From: a virus
Lineage: Duplodnaviria; Heunggongvirae; Uroviricota; Caudoviricetes
DNA: 8,002 bases
Direction: 5' to 3' (one strand)
Virus record (IMG/VR): IMGVR_UViG_2690316285_000016
Shown: one piece after another, positions 459 through 7,585 of the stretch
Layout: each line of letters starts with the position of its first letter
Numbering within the stretch: the stretch's first letter is position 1
Translations under genes and position numbers: made by a program
Notes under the pieces: generated by a model
Seen by the model: only the letters and a program-made list of their open reading frames with translations
The model's database searches: none
Told to the model about the DNA's origin: nothing

Positions 459-674
459 TTACTCTCCCCGTGCAGCCTTACGACGGTCCTCTCTGATTTT
501 GAAATACAGGTTAGTCAGATATGTCAGCAGCCCAAACAGCAGACTCCCCAGCACGCCTATTGCCGCCCACTGAGACGGGGAAACCCTGTCCAGCAACTGC
601 AGGAACCAGTAGCCCGTTCCCACCGCTGACGTGGTGTATGACACACCTGTTGTGATTTTTTCCATCTGGTACAT
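459..674 (-). CDS. S: Class II pinholin, phage 21 / 933W S-like, 71 aa from Met at 674 (alternative start Met at 665); dual-start MYQMEK motif
   Basis: Translation [71 protein letters not shown] is a close match to S21-type holins (two TM helices, charged C-terminus). SD GGGAGAcGGGG immediately upstream of ATG 674. The 97-aa ORF-track version (to 752) would have to be translated through the terminator hairpin at 708-740, so the extension is probably not real. Confidence 0.8.
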
Positions 675-707
675 ACCCCGTCTCCCGTTATCCGGAAGCT
701 GACAACA

Positions 708-740
708 ATAAAAAAAGCCACCAGTTAAGTACTGATGGCT
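708..740 (-). terminator. Rho-independent terminator on minus strand between nanS-p stop and holin start
   Basis: Minus-strand RNA AGCCAUCAGU-ACUUA-ACUGGUGGCU: 10-bp stem (one G-U pair), 5-nt loop, followed by UUUUUUU (forward A-run 710-716). Paired by hand, not folded computationally. Confidence 0.55.
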
Positions 741-824
741 CTGATAACTCATGCAGGCATCTCAGACGACCCACTGACACTACCGGTGAGTTTAACGATA
801 CCTTCCATTTGGCTGGCTCACTTT

Positions 825-2678
825 TTATGATGATGCCGGTGCATTTATCTCCAGCACCAGACTTTCTATCTCAACGCCATACGCTGCATTTTTGGTAATA
901 TCCGTCAGCGTCAGCGCATTCAGCCCCAGTGTCAGACTGTCTTTTATGACCTGGAATGCCGGGCCAGCCACTCCATTCAGTTTCGGAGTAACCGTGGCAC
1001 TGCCGGCGGTGAACACCAGCTCCAGCGTCAGCCAGTCGTTACTGTAATTCCCGAACTCGCCCAACTTTGTGTTTCCTGCTTTCTTGTGATGCATCAGATT
1101 CAGTTTGCCGTCTGTGGTCTGGGTGAAGAACGACATCAGGAACGGGTTACCAGTCCCGGTCATCGCCACGACGTCAGGTAACGCTACATCGGTATACAGA
1201 TAAATTCCCAGACCGAACTGGTTGTTGGTCAGTGCGCCTGACAGTCGAAACTTACAGCTCAGTCTGCCACCCCGTGTCAGCAGGGAGACTGCGTCATCCA
1301 CCGGGCGCGTCAGGGACCAGGCTTTATTGCTCTGCTTGGTGATCTTAAATACACCATCTGACAACTGAACTCCGCCATTCTTAATGCTCCAGCCCTGCGC
1401 AGCAGCGTCTCCGGCTGTCGGCAACAGGGAGATTGTGCGTATGGATGCATCTTCAGACGGCCCCGATGGCGTGTCGCCGCCGGGCGAGGGTTTGATTTCC
1501 GGTGCCTTACCACTAATGAAGGCTAAGGTGCGACCGGCTACGTTCAGAATAGCAGTTGCCATACGATCGGGAATAATGCCACGACGCGCCCATGAGCTGA
1601 AATGCGTCGGGCGATTTGATGATACCCAGTTTTTGTTCGTTCGGGATGCCGAACCGTAATAACCAGACCCGGCAATATCAGGATCTTCTGACGGGTTGTT
1701 TGTCGGTGTATTAACTCCGCTACCATCGGTCATAAAGGGAACAAAATAAATCTGCTGGGATTCTTTACCTTTATATGCACCATATACCACTTCATATTGC
1801 GTACCGTGTTCTTGTTTCCACGCGTATGTCGTGTCGCCACAAATCCAGGGGACTGATGCCGGACTTCCACCGTGACACTGCGCCGCCAGCCCGGCAAGGT
1901 CAGCACGGAACTGCTGTACCATTGCAAGAAATGCTGCTGGCTGCTGGGCGTAACTGGCATTCGTCATATCGAATTCCCCCTGCATCCAGCATATCGCCAG
2001 CAAAACGTTTTTCGGGTTTTTCTGCAATGCTGCCTTCGTGCGGAAAAGCAGATCCTGATATAACGGCTTACCCACTCCCCAGCGAGCCGAATCCTGACTG
2101 GCCCCCGTGGACTCGCTGAATGTCCCCTCCGTGCCCTGGGTGAATGCCGAACCACCACAACAGCATGGTACCAGCAGGATCCCCGCATTATTAGGGATAT
2201 ACGGAAGCAGTTTTTTGGCAATATGTAAGCCCTGTCCGACACAGCCGTACTGCCCTTTGCTCAGGTCAGCCCGGGGATGGTTAATCGTACTCATATCCTG
2301 AACATCATGCAGACAATGGTCAGCAGGAATGATGTCGTTAAATACGCATACTTCACCACCGGGAGTCACTGTGTTACGACGGGCCAGTTGCTTAATGCGC
2401 GGATGGGGCGCATCGTATGAATCCGGAAGCGGAAGACCTTCACCGTAAGCCATGGCATTGGATTGCCCGGCCAGTACGATGACGTAGTACCACTCCGGCT
2501 CAGTTGCACCACTGACGACCACATCACCTTCTGCTGCAATCGCCTGCATCAGGGTATAAGGGGTTATGGCCACCGGACTACCAAACGGCTGCCAGCCCTC
2601 CTTCAGTTTTTGTGTCAGTCGTTTCGCAAGGTCTGACGGCGATGCCGCCCTGACCACGTCATAGTGTTTAAATGCCAT
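825..2678 (-). CDS. nanS-p: Prophage-encoded sialate (9-O-acetyl-Neu5Ac) O-acetylesterase, NanS-p-like; SGNH/SASA hydrolase core, 617 aa
   Basis: 617-aa ORF with SD GGGAGGA 5 nt before ATG 2678..2676. SGNH block I motif VIVLAGQSNAMAYGE (GQSN encoded at 2468..2457, candidate catalytic Ser73). N-terminus MAFKHYDVVRAASPSDLAKRL... is typical of the DUF1737 N-domain of NanS-p proteins in EHEC prophages. Position between the tRNA/stx slot and the holin matches Stx-phage synteny. Confidence 0.85.
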   Translation of the reverse strand: MAFKHYDVVRAASPSDLAKRLTQKLKEGWQPFGSPVAITPYTLMQAIAAEGDVVVSGATEPEWYYVIVLAGQSNAMAYGEGLPLPDSYDAPHPRIKQLARRNTVTPGGEVCVFNDIIPADHCLHDVQDMSTINHPRADLSKGQYGCVGQGLHIAKKLLPYIPNNAGILLVPCCCGGSAFTQGTEGTFSESTGASQDSARWGVGKPLYQDLLFRTKAALQKNPKNVLLAICWMQGEFDMTNASYAQQPAAFLAMVQQFRADLAGLAAQCHGGSPASVPWICGDTTYAWKQEHGTQYEVVYGAYKGKESQQIYFVPFMTDGSGVNTPTNNPSEDPDIAGSGYYGSASRTNKNWVSSNRPTHFSSWARRGIIPDRMATAILNVAGRTLAFISGKAPEIKPSPGGDTPSGPSEDASIRTISLLPTAGDAAAQGWSIKNGGVQLSDGVFKITKQSNKAWSLTRPVDDAVSLLTRGGRLSCKFRLSGALTNNQFGLGIYLYTDVALPDVVAMTGTGNPFLMSFFTQTTDGKLNLMHHKKAGNTKLGEFGNYSNDWLTLELVFTAGSATVTPKLNGVAGPAFQVIKDSLTLGLNALTLTDITKNAAYGVEIESLVLEINAPASS

Positions 2679-2871
2679 GAATCCTCCCGGCCGGGATAAT
2701 ATTGTGAGTAAAATAAGGAGCGGGCTGAAGTCCGGAAGTTACAGGACAATGGCAGAAGAGAGACGACAGCCCGCAATTCGAAAAAGACCGCGCAGTTGCG
2801 CAGAGTGATTACTATGGGGTATTATTCGCCAGCTGAAATATTACTTCACGTTTTATTGTTTATTCCTTGCC

Positions 2872-2900
2872 GCCCGCGTCTCCCAGCGCGGGCTTTTTTT
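2872..2900 (+). terminator. Plus-strand intrinsic terminator-like hairpin + T7 (duplicate at 4291-4319)
   Basis: GCCCGCG-tctcccag-CGCGGGC perfect 7-bp GC stem followed by TTTTTTT on the plus strand; identical copy in repeat 2. Confidence 0.5.
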
Positions 2901-2906
2901 GCCCAC

Positions 2907-2929
2907 AAGAAAACCCCTCCGGAGAGGGG
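2907..2929 (-). terminator. Minus-strand intrinsic terminator-like hairpin + U-tract (duplicate at 4326-4348)
   Basis: Minus RNA CCCCUC-UCCG-GAGGGG (6-bp GC stem, tetraloop) followed by UUUUCUU; lies 6 nt from the plus-strand terminator, forming a convergent pair. Confidence 0.5.
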
Positions 2930-3177
2930 CTAAAGCCGCGTATCTGTATCATCATGCACATGGTGCCGGGTGCCTCCCGGTGAGTTCAGCCCGGTGCCAC
3001 TAAACCCGCGTCATTCTCGTTTTGATAATCAGAGATTATACCGTCACCAGTCGCCCCTCCGCTCAGGGGGATTCACCATGCGAAATTTTTTTAACAAATG
3101 CCCAGTCTGACAGGCAACTGTCAACTTACTGAATTGTGAGCAACATAGCATTTAACGGGGAACCTGTTTTCTGCAGT

Positions 3178-3204
3178 AAAAAGGCCCACCGGAGCGGATG
3201 GGCC
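3178..3204 (-). terminator. Minus-strand hairpin + U5 (duplicate at 4597-4623)
   Basis: Minus RNA GGCCCA-(10-nt loop)-UGGGCC followed by UUUUUAC; forward A-run 3178-3182. Confidence 0.4.
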
Positions 3205-3395
3205 TGGAAGGATAGCGGTCATGTGATGCCGGTTTCCCGGTAACTCAGCACCGGTATCTGAGTCAACGTTTTCTCTACTGGGTCATTTCCGATACGCCCT
3301 GCCTGCTGACAGGCTTTCATCACATCTGAAAATATAGCACCCTGACTGATACTGTAGTACCTAAGGTTCCAGAAACTGTGATGTATCCGGCACAG

Positions 3396-3416
3396 AAAAG
3401 CCCCTCCGGAGAGGGC
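3396..3416 (-). terminator. Minus-strand hairpin + U4 (duplicate at 4815-4835); diverged homolog of the 2907-2929 element
   Basis: Minus RNA CCCUC-UCCG-GAGGG followed by GCUUUUCUG; weaker (5-bp stem). Confidence 0.35.
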
Positions 3417-3809
3417 TGGAGAGTGGCGCTATGTGCCATTGCATGATGCCGGGTGCCTCCCGGTGAATTCAGTACCAGCACCTGAATCCGCGATTATCCC
3501 ATATACCTACTCGCTGATTGCCCCTCCGCACAGGGGGATTCACCATGCCAGTTTCTTTTAACAAACTCCCCGCAAACCAGACAACAGTCAACCGCCTGAA
3601 TTGTGAAGTATTTAAAAATTTCTCCCGCTAACTGATACCCGGCTAACAGTCTGGCGTTTTCTTTTTCAGCAACGGGAAAGCAACAACCACCACACCCGCC
3701 ACCAGCACACCGTCAGCCAGCACTGACATTATCCGGCTGCTGCAATGCCATTCACAAAAACAGTAAGCAATCACTTTTTACCGTAACAGGTGATAATCCA
3801 GATATGTAT

Positions 3810-4136
3810 CTACCCCAGATGAGTAATCCGAAGTTCATCCATACCACAGGTCCTGGCTATTCTGTTGTACTCCTGAACAAGAGCAAATAATTCTGAATTA
3901 GCAACCATGAACTCATCGCAAACCCTCTGTATAGCATCACTATTCAGAATAATAACGTCTCTTCCCGAAAGACGATCAGGAGTACAGAACAAAACTGTCA
4001 AACGGCTGAAGGCCTTTGCTCGTGCTGCATTGACTATATCAATACGCTGCCTAAGGATGAAACACCCCGACGCCTCATCAATATTCACTCTACCCACACC
4101 ATATGAATGATAAATATTTAATGCTGAAAAAACCAT
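3810..4136 (-). CDS. Hypothetical protein; unrecognised cargo ORF in AT-rich insert (108 aa from first ATG at 4136; ORF-track 117 aa assumes TTG start at 4163)
   Basis: Only ORF over 100 codons in the 2.3 kb between tRNAs and nanS-p, and on the same strand as the late operon. No strong SD before either start; no motif I recognise. Local sequence is AT-rich (hand count 25 G+C in 90 nt over 4141-4230). Could be non-coding or a gene remnant. Confidence 0.35.
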   Translation of the reverse strand: MVFSALNIYHSYGVGRVNIDEASGCFILRQRIDIVNAARAKAFSRLTVLFCTPDRLSGRDVIILNSDAIQRVCDEFMVANSELFALVQEYNRIARTCGMDELRITHLG

Positions 4137-4230
4137 TAGACCGTATAACAAACACTCAATCAATACTTAACAGAACTTTTATTTTTGACAAACATAAAAT
4201 ATTTTCAACAATATCCTGAGCCAGGTATAT

Positions 4231-5036
4231 NTATGGGGTATTATTCGCCAGCTGAAATATTACTTCACGTTTTATTGTTTATTCCTTGCCGCCCGCGTCT
4301 CCCAGCGCGGGCTTTTTTTGCCCACAAGAAAACCCCTCCGGAGAGGGGCTAAAGCCGCGTATCTGTATCATCATGCACATGGTGCCGGGTGCCTCCCGGT
4401 GAGTTCAGCCCGGTGCCACTAAACCCGCGTCATTCTCGTTTTGATAATCAGAGATTATACCGTCACCAGTCGCCCCTCCGCTCAGGGGGATTCACCATGC
4501 GAAATTTTTTTAACAAATGCCCAGTCTGACAGGCAACTGTCAACTTACTGAATTGTGAGCAACATAGCATTTAACGGGGAACCTGTTTTCTGCAGTAAAA
4601 AGGCCCACCGGAGCGGATGGGCCTGGAAGGATAGCGGTCATGTGATGCCGGTTTCCCGGTAACTCAGCACCGGTATCTGAGTCAACGTTTTCTCTACTGG
4701 GTCATTTCCGATACGCCCTGCCTGCTGACAGGCTTTCATCACATCTGAAAATATAGCACCCTGACTGATACTGTAGTACCTAAGGTTCCAGAAACTGTGA
4801 TGTATCCGGCACAGAAAAGCCCCTCCGGAGAGGGCTGGAGAGTGGCGCTATGTGCCATTGCATGATGCCGGGTGCCTCCCGGTGAATTCAGTACCAGCAC
4901 CTGAATCCGCGATTATCCCATATACCTACTCGCTGATTGCCCCTCCGCACAGGGGGATTCACCATGCCAGTTTCTTTTAACAAACTCCCCGCAAAACAGA
5001 CAACTGTCAACCGTCTGAATTGTGAGACATTTAAAA
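4231..5036. repeat. Direct repeat copy 2 (~806 bp), abutting the tRNA-cluster terminator
   Basis: Same comparison as copy 1. Position 4231 is a single ambiguous n exactly at the copy boundary (copy 1 has c at 2812). Confidence 0.85.
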
Positions 5037-5058
5037 AAAAGGCCCGCAAAAGCGAGCC
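5033..5058 (-). terminator. Intrinsic terminator immediately downstream of the tRNA cluster (minus strand)
   Basis: Minus RNA GGCUCGC-UUUU-GCGGGCC (7-bp stem with one G-U) followed by UUUUUUUU (forward A8 at 5033-5040); starts 15 nt after the tRNA-Arg(UCU) 3' end. Confidence 0.5.
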
Positions 5059-6421: not shown

Positions 6422-6815
6422 GGATCATTAAGCCTGTCTCTGATAGGCTCATTCTGCTTTTGCGCAAAGCAGTGGGCCTGAGGTTTGCTTGTGAACCCAA
6501 CGCATGAGNNNNNNNNNNNNNNNNNNNNNNNNNNNNNNNNNNNNNNNNNNNNNNNNNNNNNNNNNNNNNNNNNNNNNNNNNNNNNNNNNNNNNNNNNNNN
6601 NNNNNNNNNNNNNNNNNNNNNNNNNNNNNNNNNNNNNNNNNNNNNNNNNNNNNNNNNNNNNNNNNNNNNNNNNNNNNNNNNNNNNNNNNNNNNNNNNNNN
6701 NNNNNNNNNNNNNNNNNNNNNNNNNNNNNNNNNNNNNNNNNNNNNNNNNNNNNNNNNNNNNNNNNNNNNNNNNNNNNNNNCTGGCGGTTTCTGTCATATC
6801 CTGCTGTTTTAGCAT
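6414..6815 (-). CDS. Hypothetical protein upstream of and overlapping the methylase; interior N-masked (only MLKQQDMTETA... and ...HALGSQANLRPTALRKSRMSLSETGLMIHA visible)
   Basis: Candidate start ATG 6815..6813 preceded by AAGGAAAAG SD-like sequence; C-terminal fragment 6508..6417 ends in a TAA that overlaps the methylase start. Both visible ends are in the same frame only if the N-run length (272) is exact, which cannot be verified. Confidence 0.3.
   Translation of the reverse strand: MLKQQDMTETAXXXXXXXXXXXXXXXXXXXXXXXXXXXXXXXXXXXXXXXXXXXXXXXXXXXXXXXXXXXXXXXXXXXXXXXXXXXXXXXXXXXXXXXXXXXXHALGSQANLRPTALRKSRMSLSETGLMIHA
6509..6780. other. Run of 272 N (masked or unresolved sequence)
   Basis: Literal n characters in the sequence. 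Confidence 0.99.
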
Positions 6816-6847: not shown

Positions 6848-7585
6848 NNNNNNNNNNNNNNNNNNNNNNNNNNNNNNNNNNNNNNNNNNNNNNNNNNNNN
6901 NNNNNNNNNNNNNNNNNNNNNNNNNNNNNNNNNNNNNNNNNNNNNNNNNNNNNNNNNNNNNNNNNNNNNNNNNNNNNNNNNNNNNNNNNNNNNNNNNNNN
7001 NNNNNNNNNNNNNNNNNNNNNNNNNNNNNNNNNNNNNNNNNNNNNNNNNNNNNNNNNNNNNNNNNNNNNNNNNNNNNNNNNNNNNNNNNNNNNNNNNNNN
7101 NNNNNNNNNNNNNNNNNNNNNNNNNNNNNNNNNNNNNNNNNNNNNNNNNNNNNNNNNNNNNNNNNNNNNNNNNNNNNNNNNNNNNNNNNNNNNNNNNNNN
7201 NNNNNNNNNNNNNNNNNNNNNNNNNNNNNNNNNNNNNNNNNNNNNNNNNNNNNNNNNNNNNNNNNNNNNNNNNNNNNNNNNNNNNNNNNNNNNNNNNNNN
7301 NNNNNNNNNNNNNNNNNNNNNNNNNNNNNNNNNNNNNNNNNNNNNNNNNNNNNNNNNNNNNNNNNNNNNNNNNNNNNNNNNNNNNNNNNNNNNNNNNNNN
7401 NNNNNNNNNNNNNNNNNNNNNNNNNNNNNNNNNNNNNNNNNNNNNNNNNNNNNNNNNNNNNNNNNNNNNNNNNNNNNNNNNNNNNNNNNNNNNNNNNNNN
7501 NNNNNNNNNNNNNNNNNNNNNNNNNNNNNNNNNNNNNNNNNNNNNNNNNNNNNNNNNNNNNNNNNNNNNNNNNNNNNNNNNNNNN
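6848..7585. other. Run of 738 N (masked or unresolved sequence); likely hides the Q 3' end and the late promoter/qut region
   Basis: Literal n characters; every ORF-track protein containing X runs is an artefact of these blocks. Confidence 0.99.

What the first reader, a model, noticed from the sequence alone, without database searches (positions are those of the whole stretch)
705..5058. Stack of hairpin-plus-U-tract terminators on the transcribed strand between the tRNAs and the holin
On the minus strand I find GC-rich stem-loops followed by U-runs at 5033-5058 (after the tRNAs), three in each repeat copy (4815-4835, 4597-4623, 4326-4348 and 3396-3416, 3178-3204, 2907-2929), and one 33 nt upstream of the holin start (708-740). 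Lambda-like late operons are known to rely on Q antitermination to read through tR'; an array of up to eight terminators would keep nanS-p, the cargo ORF and the lysis genes tightly silent in the lysogen and strictly Q-dependent. The number is unusual.
Basis: partly seen in the sequence, partly recalled or inferred. Interest (0 to 1): 0.6.

Follow-up and report, generated by a model that had tools for sequence, protein, structure and literature searches.

The report
Terminators of prophage small-RNA genes
The eight hairpin-plus-U-tract sites are real, but six are the ordinary terminators of already described prophage small-RNA genes (STnc100/PasD family), present twice because of a duplicated block, so this is a known arrangement and not a new terminator array.

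Summary
All eight hairpin-plus-U-tract sites exist at the stated minus-strand coordinates and fold at -9.8 to -16.5 kcal/mol. They are not a purpose-built stack; each closes its own small transcription unit.

- **5041-5058:** ends the tRNA cluster. The same hairpin precedes stx2A in Sakai Sp5.
- **Six sites:** these are the 3' ends of small-RNA genes. Four match Rfam STnc100 at 122-161 bits (cut-off 47). Two belong to a diverged relative, "M", at 30 bits.
- **Own promoters:** each STnc100-type unit has a conserved TTGnCT-N17-TTAAAA promoter. It sits at a fixed distance from the RNA-seq-defined 5' end of the EPEC homologue PasD2.
- **Plus strand:** a convergent small RNA abuts unit B. It is a homologue of an Hfq-bound EPEC RNA and sits where AsxR sits in Sp5, as Tree et al. 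(2014) described for the "moron" site.

The count of eight comes from a 1,419-bp duplication with 764 identical bases. Its junction carries a single N and is found in none of 5,426 complete E. coli genomes. It may be an assembly join.

The hairpin before the holin (714-742) is conserved with compensatory changes whatever gene lies upstream.

Verdict: observation confirmed, interpretation partly supported, already known, low interest.

The parts
5033..5058 (-). Intrinsic terminator of the tRNA cluster (tRNA-Met/Ile-CAT, Arg-TCG, Arg-TCT at 5322-5073): stem 5041-5058, U8 tail 5033-5040
   Evidence: -12.6 kcal/mol, z = -4.2. The same hairpin follows argO2 and precedes stx2A in Sakai Sp5, and follows the tRNAs in UTI89. 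dRNA-seq in Sakai found a separate promoter driving the tRNAs (PMC7547250).
4809..5003 (-). Small-RNA gene A, copy R2 (STnc100 family): -35 TTGTCT 5003-4998, -10 TTAAAA 4980-4975, predicted +1 about 4967, terminator stem 4836-4818, tail to about 4809
   Evidence: Rfam RF02076 at 123.6 bits (cut-off 47). Promoter and RNA alignment with PasD2 and Sakai EcOnc27. Terminator -9.8 kcal/mol.
4596..4758 (-). Small-RNA-like gene M, copy R2 (diverged relative of STnc100): extended -10 TGcTATATT 4758-4750, predicted +1 about 4744, terminator stem 4624-4601, U5 to 4596
   Evidence: STnc100 at 30.1 bits, E = 0.0014, below the cut-off. Fold with a long-range closing helix plus terminator, z = -1.9. Conserved in phages PhiR5_2 and 640R1 with changed but still pairing hairpins. 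Present in 673 of 5,426 genomes.
4324..4536 (-). Small-RNA gene B, copy R2 (STnc100 family): -35 TTGCCT 4536-4531, -10 TTAAAA 4513-4508, predicted +1 about 4500, terminator stem 4350-4331
   Evidence: Rfam RF02076 at 161 bits; alignment; terminator -14.4 kcal/mol.
4251..4319 (+). Convergent small RNA C, copy R2, on the opposite strand: terminator 4291-4312 plus U7. The native -35 is lost at the junction.
4231..4231 (.). Single N exactly at the junction between repeat copy R2 and the unique segment U
   Evidence: The junction is absent from 5,426 complete E. coli genomes, where hits stop at 4230. It is also absent from genome contigs and metagenome contigs.
3607..4230 (-). Unique segment U between the repeat copies. 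It holds a small region annotated as DUF3927 in strain 2D (about 3641-3757) and an unannotated 117-aa ORF (3810-4163).
   Evidence: same segment in strain 2D. The 117-aa ORF has no Pfam match.
3390..3584 (-). Small-RNA gene A, copy R1: -35 3584-3579, -10 3561-3556, predicted +1 about 3548, terminator stem 3417-3399
   Evidence: Rfam RF02076 at 122.5 bits.
3177..3339 (-). Small-RNA-like gene M, copy R1: extended -10 3339-3331, terminator stem 3205-3182
   Evidence: 30.1 bits. Identical to the R2 copy.
2905..3117 (-). Small-RNA gene B, copy R1: -35 TTGCCT 3117-3112, -10 TTAAAA 3094-3089, predicted +1 about 3081, terminator stem 2931-2912
   Evidence: Rfam RF02076 at 161 bits. Its counterpart in Sakai Sp5 lies 75 nt after stx2B (207.7 bits).
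2796..2900 (+). Convergent small RNA C, copy R1: -35 TTGCGC 2796-2801, -10 TATTAT 2820-2825, predicted +1 about 2832, terminator 2872-2893 plus U7 to 2900
   Evidence: unstructured 5' part plus terminator, z = -2.9. Nearly identical to the E2348/69 PP6 Hfq RIL-seq small RNA E2348C_1409.E2348C_1408.IGR (PMC8550237 table S6). It occupies the position that AsxR holds in Sp5.
2780..2803 (-). Weak same-strand hairpin plus UCUUUUU upstream of nanS-p. It overlaps the -35 of unit C on the other strand.
   Evidence: (-9.3 kcal/mol, z = -3.4). Conserved in Sakai Sp5, UTI89, 2D, E2348/69 PP6 and PhiR5_2.
825..2678 (-). nanS-p type sialate O-acetylesterase (DUF1737 + SASA + DUF6645)
707..742 (-). Terminator-like hairpin of the lysis-cassette module: stem 714-742, U-rich tail 707-713, about 40 nt upstream of the holin start at 674
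   Evidence: (-17.0 kcal/mol, z = -5.0). Twenty-six sequence variants upstream of the same holin all fold. The consensus has 11 pairs, 5 with compensatory double changes.
459..674 (-). P21-type class II holin, 71 aa, with the start MYQM
   Evidence: PF04971, 112 bits.

Best explanation
The hairpins are ordinary intrinsic (rho-independent) terminators. Each closes its own short transcription unit, inserted in the late operon of a lambdoid prophage between Q/pR' and the lysis genes (the "moron" site).

In order on the minus strand:
1. The tRNA cluster and its terminator.
2. A three-gene small-RNA array, A-M-B. A and B belong to the STnc100/PasD family and M is a diverged relative. Each has its own sigma-70 promoter, a structured RNA of roughly 150-180 nt, and a terminator that probably also serves as the Hfq-binding 3' end.
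3. A short convergent small RNA, C, on the other strand, whose terminator sits back to back with B's.
4. A weak hairpin before nanS-p.
5. A conserved terminator-like hairpin that travels with the P21-type holin.

The A-M-B-C block appears twice because of a 1,419-bp duplication.

In the lysogen the small RNAs are made from their own promoters and stop at these hairpins. After induction, Q-modified RNA polymerase starting at pR' ignores all of them. That step is inferred from established lambda biology.

A terminator on every inserted promoter-bearing unit is what one expects, because read-through into the holin would harm the lysogen.
For: **Family assignment.** Rfam STnc100 (RF02076) matches at 161, 161, 123.6 and 122.5 bits against a cut-off of 47. 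The terminator stem is part of the model. The same family is found 75 nt after stx2B in Sakai Sp5, with AsxR convergent to it.

**Own promoters.** An alignment of nine units from five sources shows invariant TTG-CT and TTAAAA 17 nt apart. Both lie at a fixed distance from GCAUGGUGAAUCC, which is the RNA-seq-defined 5' end of PasD2 (coordinates from PMC8550237 table S6; sequence).

**Expression without induction.**
- PasD1/PasD2 were verified by Northern blot as Hfq-dependent small RNAs (PMC8550237).
- Eleven STnc100 copies are expressed in EDL933 and one was confirmed by Northern blot (PMC5331693).

**Prior description of the layout.** Tree et al. 2014 describe convergent small-RNA genes between the moron coding sequence and the conserved downstream ORF in Sp3, 4, 5, 9, 10, 11, 15 and 17.

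**Unit C.** It is nearly identical to an Hfq RIL-seq small RNA of EPEC.

**tRNA unit.** It has its own transcription start site in Sakai.

**The array in phages.** The A-M-B-C array, with all its hairpins, occurs in phage genomes PhiR5_2 and vB_EcoS-640R1 at about 78-80% identity.

**Holin hairpin.** It is conserved with 5 compensatory pairs.
Against: - No transcript 5' or 3' ends were mapped for this locus. Promoters and +1 positions are inferred by homology.
- The A-unit terminator is weak here: a 1-nt deletion in the stem, -9.8 kcal/mol, tail UUUCUGUG, z = +0.14. It may leak.
- M is below the Rfam cut-off, and I found no published description of it as a small RNA.
- pR' and tR' are hidden in the run of N at 6848-7585, so Q-dependence of the whole region could not be examined in this window.
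- The hairpin before the holin has no small-RNA gene attached.
Confidence: 0.85

Rival explanations
1. Dedicated terminator stack. The hairpins were selected as a series of roadblocks that keep nanS-p, the cargo ORF and the lysis genes silent in the lysogen and strictly Q-dependent. Their number would be the adaptive feature.
For: - All lie on the transcribed strand between the tRNAs and the holin.
- The pre-holin hairpin is conserved at a fixed distance from the holin whatever gene precedes it, with compensatory changes. That suits an insulator for the lysis genes.
- nanS-p rises 1-2.4 logs on induction in Stx2a phages.
Against: - Six of the eight are integral parts of small-RNA genes with their own promoters.
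- The count is doubled by a duplication that may be an assembly join.
- Stx2a phages manage with one STnc100 unit at this position.
- Basal nanS-p expression was detected.
- Two of the hairpins are weak.
Confidence: 0.1
2. Processing model. The small RNAs are not independent genes. They are cut out of read-through or Q-antiterminated late transcripts, as StxS is cut from the pR'-tR' RNA by RNase E. The hairpins would then act mainly as protective, Hfq-binding 3' ends rather than as stop signals.
For: - The units are on the same strand as the late operon.
- StxS is generated by RNase E processing.
- The mature 5' end of PasA is thought to arise by cleavage of a longer transcript.
Against: - The -35 and -10 elements are invariant, with fixed spacing to the mapped 5' end of PasD2.
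- Family members are expressed in uninduced cultures.
- The U-tracts directly follow the stems, as in true terminators.
Confidence: 0.08
3. The count is inflated by an assembly artefact. The source genome would have one A-M-B-C block per prophage, for example a UTI89-like and a 2D-like prophage, and the two were joined through the shared 764-bp repeat. The true number of same-strand terminators per late operon in this stretch would then be five or six. This is compatible with the best explanation.
For: - The two copies are 100% identical over 764 nt.
- A single N sits exactly at the junction, 4231.
- BLAST hits from 2,044 genomes stop at 4230 and none spans the junction. The junction pattern is absent from genome contigs and metagenome contigs.
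- The left half matches the UTI89 layout and the right half matches the strain 2D layout.
- The R2 copy of unit C has lost its native -35.
Against: - A recent real recombination between two prophages would look the same.
- A few SNPs distinguish the 5' edges of the two copies.
- I have no read-level data.
Confidence: 0.5

Closest known systems
STnc100 (Rfam RF02076) / PasD1-PasD2 (EPEC) / EcOnc27 and EcOnc13 (EHEC) prophage small RNAs
   Same: - Units A and B score 122-161 bits on the family model.
- They have the same 5' start sequence, GCAUGGUGAAUCC, the same long-range closing helix and the same 3' terminator.
- They hold the same position, upstream of the nanS-p esterase and downstream of Q, the tRNAs and the moron (bioRxiv 10.64898/2026.05.13.724894).
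   Different: - Here there are three tandem units (A, M, B) instead of one, and the block is present twice.
- M reaches only 30 bits.
- The PasD seed UGUGAG is not present in A or B.
Convergent small-RNA pairs at the moron site of lambdoid prophages (Tree et al. 2014, PMC4104026), e.g. AsxR/EcOnc27 after stx2B in Sp5
   Same: A same-strand STnc100-type RNA and an opposite-strand short RNA have terminators back to back, between the moron and the conserved esterase ORF.
   Different: - Unit C is not AsxR or AgvB: neither Rfam model matches at E <= 1.
- C is the EcOnc08/21/42-like type that RIL-seq detected in EPEC PP6.
Lambda pR'-tR' 6S RNA and StxS (Sy et al. 2020, PMC7547250)
   Same: Short terminated RNAs made in the lysogen inside the late region. 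Their terminators are overridden by Q.
   Different: - StxS and 6S RNA start at pR' itself, directly after Q.
- The units here lie downstream of the tRNAs, have their own promoters, and show no sequence relation to the Sp5 pR'-tR' leader by eye (sequence).
- pR' and tR' of this window are masked by N.
Morons (Juhala et al. 2000, as cited in PMC4104026 and PMC8065619)
   Same: Autonomous promoter-gene-terminator units inserted in the late operon, expressed from the prophage and read through during lytic growth.
   Different: Classic morons are protein-coding. Here the cargo is RNA, plus nanS-p and a small region annotated as DUF3927 in strain 2D.

Membership tests
Rfam RF02076 STnc100 small-RNA family | Covariance-model score at or above the curated gathering score (47 bits) | tested here: met
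   The four copies at 3110-2901, 4529-4320, 4996-4807 and 3577-3388 score 161, 161, 123.6 and 122.5 bits. The two M copies score 30.1 bits and do NOT meet it.
Rfam RF02076 STnc100 small-RNA family | 3' stem-loop followed by a U-tract (terminator / Hfq-binding site) as part of the conserved structure | tested here: met
   Model positions about 175-199 align to the hairpins at 2931-2912 and 4836-4818.
Rfam RF02076 STnc100 small-RNA family | Independent expression as a discrete, Hfq-associated RNA | not testable with these tools
   Known only for homologues: PasD1/2 Northern blots and RIL-seq, and STnc100_4 Northern blot in EDL933. Conservation of the promoter was tested and supports it.
Intrinsic (rho-independent) terminator | G+C-rich stem-loop of adequate stability | tested here: met
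   Stem-only energies are -9.8 to -16.5 kcal/mol for the eight sites.
Intrinsic (rho-independent) terminator | Run of U immediately 3' of the stem | tested here: inconclusive
   - Strong for 5041-5058 (U8) and 714-742 (reads as U7).
- Moderate for 4601-4624 (reads as U5) and 4331-4350 (UUCUUGUG).
- Weak for 4818-4836 (UUUCUGUG).
- A rough d'Aubenton-Carafa-type score, with the formula taken from memory, did not separate my positive controls (-25 to +41), so it was not used.
Intrinsic (rho-independent) terminator | Transcript 3' ends at the U-tract in vivo | not testable with these tools
   Needs Term-seq or 3' RACE.
Anti-sRNA class AsxR/AgvB (Rfam RF02703 / RF02702) | Match to the family model / conserved 3' region of about 42 nt | tested here: not met
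   No AsxR or AgvB match at E <= 1 in the window, whereas Sakai Sp5 gives AsxR at 88 bits. Unit C shares only position, orientation and the terminator tail with AsxR.
EcOnc08/21/42-like small RNA (E2348C_1409.E2348C_1408.IGR of EPEC) | Sequence homology over the seed (CCUUGCC) and the terminator | tested here: met
   The alignment shows near identity from the -35 through the U-tract. The published 3' sequence and target motif GGCAAGG are.
Lambda-type Q-antiterminated late operon | Q gene followed by pR', a Q-utilisation site and tR' | tested here: inconclusive
   Q is present (PF03589, 109 bits). The DNA after Q is a run of N (6848-7585). In strain 2D and phage 640R1, an identical Q 3' end is followed by TTGATT-N17-TAAATT and a hairpin plus U6.
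Moron | Own promoter and own terminator, inserted between conserved late-operon genes, variable among related phages | tested here: met
   Promoters, terminators. Content varies at the same site: Sp5 has stx2AB plus one unit, UTI89 and 2D have A-M-B-C, and E2348/69 PP2 has a DUF3927-family gene plus PasD2.

The most novel reading that the evidence does not exclude
The hairpin fixed about 40 nt upstream of the P21-type holin may be a dedicated, selected terminator (insulator) of the lysis cassette. It would protect the lysogen from the constitutive promoters that small-RNA genes, tRNAs and other morons bring into the late operon. Lysis would then stay Q-dependent however much cargo is inserted upstream. 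Separately, unit M may be an undescribed small RNA that diverged from STnc100 inside a three-gene array.
Probability: 0.3. Interest if true: 0.4.

Novelty: already known. Interest (0 to 1): 0.18.

Why it matters
The finding mainly corrects an annotation. What looks like a surprising pile of terminators is an unannotated island of prophage small-RNA genes. RefSeq annotates none of them in the records I inspected.

Members of this family bind Hfq and pair with virulence and core-genome mRNAs in EPEC and EHEC, so it is useful to know that a prophage carries three to six such genes.

Two modest open points remain:
- Does the conserved pre-holin hairpin really insulate the lysis genes?
- Is unit M a functional small RNA?

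Neither would change current understanding of Q antitermination.

Tried and rejected
1. **PasA/PasC.** I expected the hairpin at 714-742 to be the 3' end of PasA or PasC, which lie between the esterase and the holin in EPEC. Rejected: PasA is on the opposite strand (743499 to 743415 in E2348/69), in a 447-nt spacer. The window's spacer is about 150 nt and has no PasA-like sequence.
2. **Relics of pR'-tR' (StxS/6S-like).** I considered that the STnc100 units were such relics. Rejected: they resemble neither the Sp5 leader (by eye) nor lambda's (from memory), and in related genomes a separate pR'/tR' lies directly after Q.
3. **Terminator score.** A d'Aubenton-Carafa-type score written from memory gave -25 to +41 for known terminators. 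It was not discriminating, so I report energies and tails only.
4. **The duplication junction.** I looked for it in complete E. coli genomes, GTDB species representatives and JGI metagenomes. There were no hits, so the duplication could not be confirmed or explained.
5. **L059.** I checked whether the pre-holin hairpin follows a Q gene there and so might be an ancestral tR'. The 400 nt upstream are AT-rich non-coding DNA, so this was uninformative.
6. **Weak Rfam hit.** The OmrA-B match on the plus strand (E = 0.2-0.7) is only terminator resemblance. The element is the EcOnc42-like RNA.

Full report
**Context.** The window is the late region of a lambdoid prophage, read on the minus strand. 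In order it holds:
- the 3' half of a Q antiterminator gene (PF03589);
- two runs of N (6848-7585 and 6509-6780);
- a DNA methylase (6421-5363);
- three tRNAs (5322-5073);
- about 2.4 kb of mostly non-coding DNA;
- a nanS-p type esterase (2678-825; DUF1737 + SASA + DUF6645);
- a P21-type holin (674-459) and a DUF1327 ORF.

It is the layout of Stx phages, with small-RNA genes where stx would be.

**Observation.** All eight hairpin-plus-U-tract sites are present on the minus strand at the stated places.
- Stem-only energies run from -9.8 to -16.5 kcal/mol. With flanks they run from -12.5 to -17.0.
- The sites after the tRNAs (U8) and before the holin (reads as U7) are textbook terminators and beat all shuffles.
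- The 4601/3182 and 4331/2912 sites are decent.
- The 4818/3399 site is weak: -9.8 kcal/mol, tail UUUCUGUG, z = +0.14. It carries a 1-nt deletion in its 5' arm relative to UTI89, strain 2D and phage PhiR5_2.
- Terminator-like sites are enriched, 28 against 6.9 +/- 2.5 in shuffles. The count includes nested calls and both repeat copies.

**What the six repeat-borne hairpins are.** A scan against Rfam finds four full-length matches to STnc100 (RF02076) on the minus strand. Positions 3110-2901 and 4529-4320 score 161 bits. Positions 4996-4807 and 3577-3388 score about 123 bits. The cut-off is 47. Two sub-threshold matches at 3349-3176 and 4768-4595 score 30 bits (E = 0.0014). I call the units A, M and B.

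**Own promoters.** I aligned nine units: window A (two copies), window B, Sakai Sp5, E2348/69 PasD2, and A and B from phages PhiR5_2 and 640R1. The alignment shows invariant TTG-CT and TTAAAA 17 nt apart, followed after 6-9 nt (7 in the window's own units) by the invariant GC-TGGTGAATCC. That sequence is the 5' end of PasD2 as defined by RNA-seq (NC_011601 741157-741328; PMC8550237 table S6; sequence). So each unit has the parts of an autonomous gene: a promoter, a structured RNA of roughly 160-180 nt, and a terminator.

**Unit M.** It has a conserved extended -10 (TGcTATATT), a long-range closing helix like that of STnc100, and the strongest of the three terminators. Its hairpins differ in sequence but still pair in the two phages.

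**Published knowledge of these RNAs.**
- PasD1/PasD2 are abundant, Hfq-dependent small RNAs of EPEC, verified by Northern blot.
- Zhu, Shabalina and Storz (bioRxiv 2026) conclude that PasD and STnc100 share an ancestor and lie next to the esterase gene.
- EDL933 has eleven expressed STnc100 copies, one confirmed by Northern blot.
- In Sakai Sp5 the family member lies 75 nt after stx2B, with AsxR convergent to it.
- Tree et al. 2014 state that the site downstream of the Q-antiterminated pR' tolerates morons and "carried convergent sRNA genes" between the moron and the conserved downstream ORF, in eight Sakai prophages.

**The plus-strand partner.** At 2832-2900 (and 4251-4319) the plus strand encodes a roughly 69-nt RNA with an unstructured 5' part and a strong terminator. 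It is nearly identical to E2348C_1409.E2348C_1408.IGR. That RNA is an Hfq RIL-seq small RNA of EPEC prophage PP6, with homologues EcOnc08/21/42 in EHEC and a CCUUGCC seed. It is a positional analogue of AsxR but not a family member, since neither the AsxR nor the AgvB model matches it. Its -35 overlaps the weak minus-strand hairpin at 2788-2803.

**The other two hairpins.**
- *5041-5058.* This hairpin follows the last tRNA. The same hairpin precedes stx2A in Sp5. dRNA-seq in Sakai found a separate promoter that drives the tRNAs. It is therefore the terminator of the tRNA unit.
- *714-742.* This hairpin is not the end of nanS-p as such. I examined 80 viral contigs that encode a 97-100% identical holin. 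The upstream gene varies among them, yet a hairpin of 11-12 bp with a T-rich tail always lies about 40 nt before the start codon. A consensus fold of 21 variants gives 11 pairs, 5 of them with compensatory double changes. The hairpin belongs to the lysis-cassette module.

**The number eight.** Positions 2813-3576 and 4232-4995 are 100% identical at an offset of 1,419. The copies are separated by a segment U, which holds a small region annotated as DUF3927 in strain 2D and an unannotated 117-aa ORF. The junction between copy R2 and U is a single N at 4231.
- No complete E. coli genome spans that junction: 2,044 genomes match, and hits stop at 4230.
- The junction pattern is absent from GTDB representatives and from JGI metagenomes.
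- The left side (Q, methylase, tRNAs, block) has the UTI89 layout. The right side (U, block, nanS-p, holin) has the strain 2D layout.
- The R2 copy of unit C has lost its native -35.

The duplication is either a very recent recombination between two prophages or a scaffold join. I cannot tell which. A single A-M-B-C block is common: unit M occurs in 673 of 5,426 complete genomes. The block also occurs in phage genomes PhiR5_2, whose record names E. coli K-12 as host, and vB_EcoS-640R1. Five to seven same-strand terminators between pR' and the holin are therefore present in phage genomes as well as in prophages.

**Mechanism.**
- *Shown here:* family membership, conserved promoters, foldable terminators, conserved position, and covariation in the holin hairpin.
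- *Taken from the literature on homologues:* expression in uninduced cells, Hfq dependence, and a separate tRNA promoter.
- *Inferred from established lambda biology:* Q-modified polymerase from pR' reads through all of these sites during lytic growth. Any promoter-bearing insert upstream of the lysis genes must carry its own terminator, which yields the apparent stack as a by-product.

nanS-p is not fully silent in related lysogens. Basal expression was detected and rose 1-2.4 logs on induction.

**Verdict.** The arrangement is already known. Interest is low. The residual points worth a small experiment are the conserved pre-holin hairpin and unit M.

Noticed in passing
window 4231 (and 2813-3576 vs 4232-4995): A single N sits exactly at the junction of a 1,419-bp direct duplication whose copies are 100% identical over 764 nt. 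The junction occurs in none of 5,426 complete E. coli genomes, nor in the genome or metagenome collections. It may be a scaffold join of a UTI89-like and a 2D-like prophage.
   Followed up: yes
window 707-742 (-); loci L008-L087 about 40 nt upstream of the holin start: A terminator-like hairpin travels with the P21-type holin whatever gene precedes it. There are 26 sequence variants; the consensus has 11 pairs, 5 with compensatory double changes. It is a possible insulator of the lysis cassette, and I found no description of it in the papers I read.
   Followed up: partly
window 4744-4596 and 3325-3177 (-): Unit M looks like a promoter-plus-terminator small-RNA gene. It has an extended -10 (TGcTATATT) and a long-range closing helix. 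It scores only 30 bits on STnc100. It is present in 673 of 5,426 complete E. coli genomes and was not annotated in any of the records I listed.
   Followed up: partly
window 5025-5015, 4558-4548, 3606-3596, 3139-3129 (-): The 11-nt motif TCACAATTCAG has four exact copies (0.14 expected). Each lies about 10 nt upstream of the -35 of an STnc100-type unit. It is also present in Sakai Sp5; the two phages carry close variants (TCACAATTCCA in their A units, TCATAATTCAG in 640R1 unit B) and only PhiR5_2 unit B has the exact motif. It is absent from PasD2. It may be a regulator-binding site or a module boundary.
   Followed up: partly
window 2832-2900 and 4251-4319 (+): An antisense small RNA of about 69 nt is nearly identical to the EPEC Hfq RIL-seq RNA E2348C_1409.E2348C_1408.IGR (EcOnc08/21/42-like, seed CCUUGCC). 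In EPEC that RNA gave 767 chimeras with the cfa 5' UTR. The weak Rfam OmrA-B hit here is only terminator resemblance.
   Followed up: yes
window 6848-7585 and 6509-6780: Runs of N hide the DNA directly after Q, where pR', the Q-utilisation site and tR' should be, and part of the region before the methylase. The Q-to-methylase gap is about 590 nt longer than in UTI89.
   Followed up: no
window 3810-4163 (-): A 117-aa ORF with a TTG start lies in the unique segment between the repeat copies. It has no Pfam match and is not annotated in the identical segment of strain 2D. A small region annotated as DUF3927 in strain 2D follows at about 3641-3757; in E2348/69 a DUF3927-family gene directly precedes PasD2.
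   Followed up: partly
window 4818-4836 and 3399-3417 (-): The terminator of unit A carries a 1-nt deletion in its 5' arm (AGCCC-TCTCC) compared with UTI89, 2D and PhiR5_2. This lowers the stem to -9.8 kcal/mol. Both window copies share the deletion.
   Followed up: partly
window 664-674 (-): The holin begins MYQM, a dual-start arrangement like the P21 holin/antiholin pair. The three extra residues lack the positive charge usual in antiholins.
   Followed up: no
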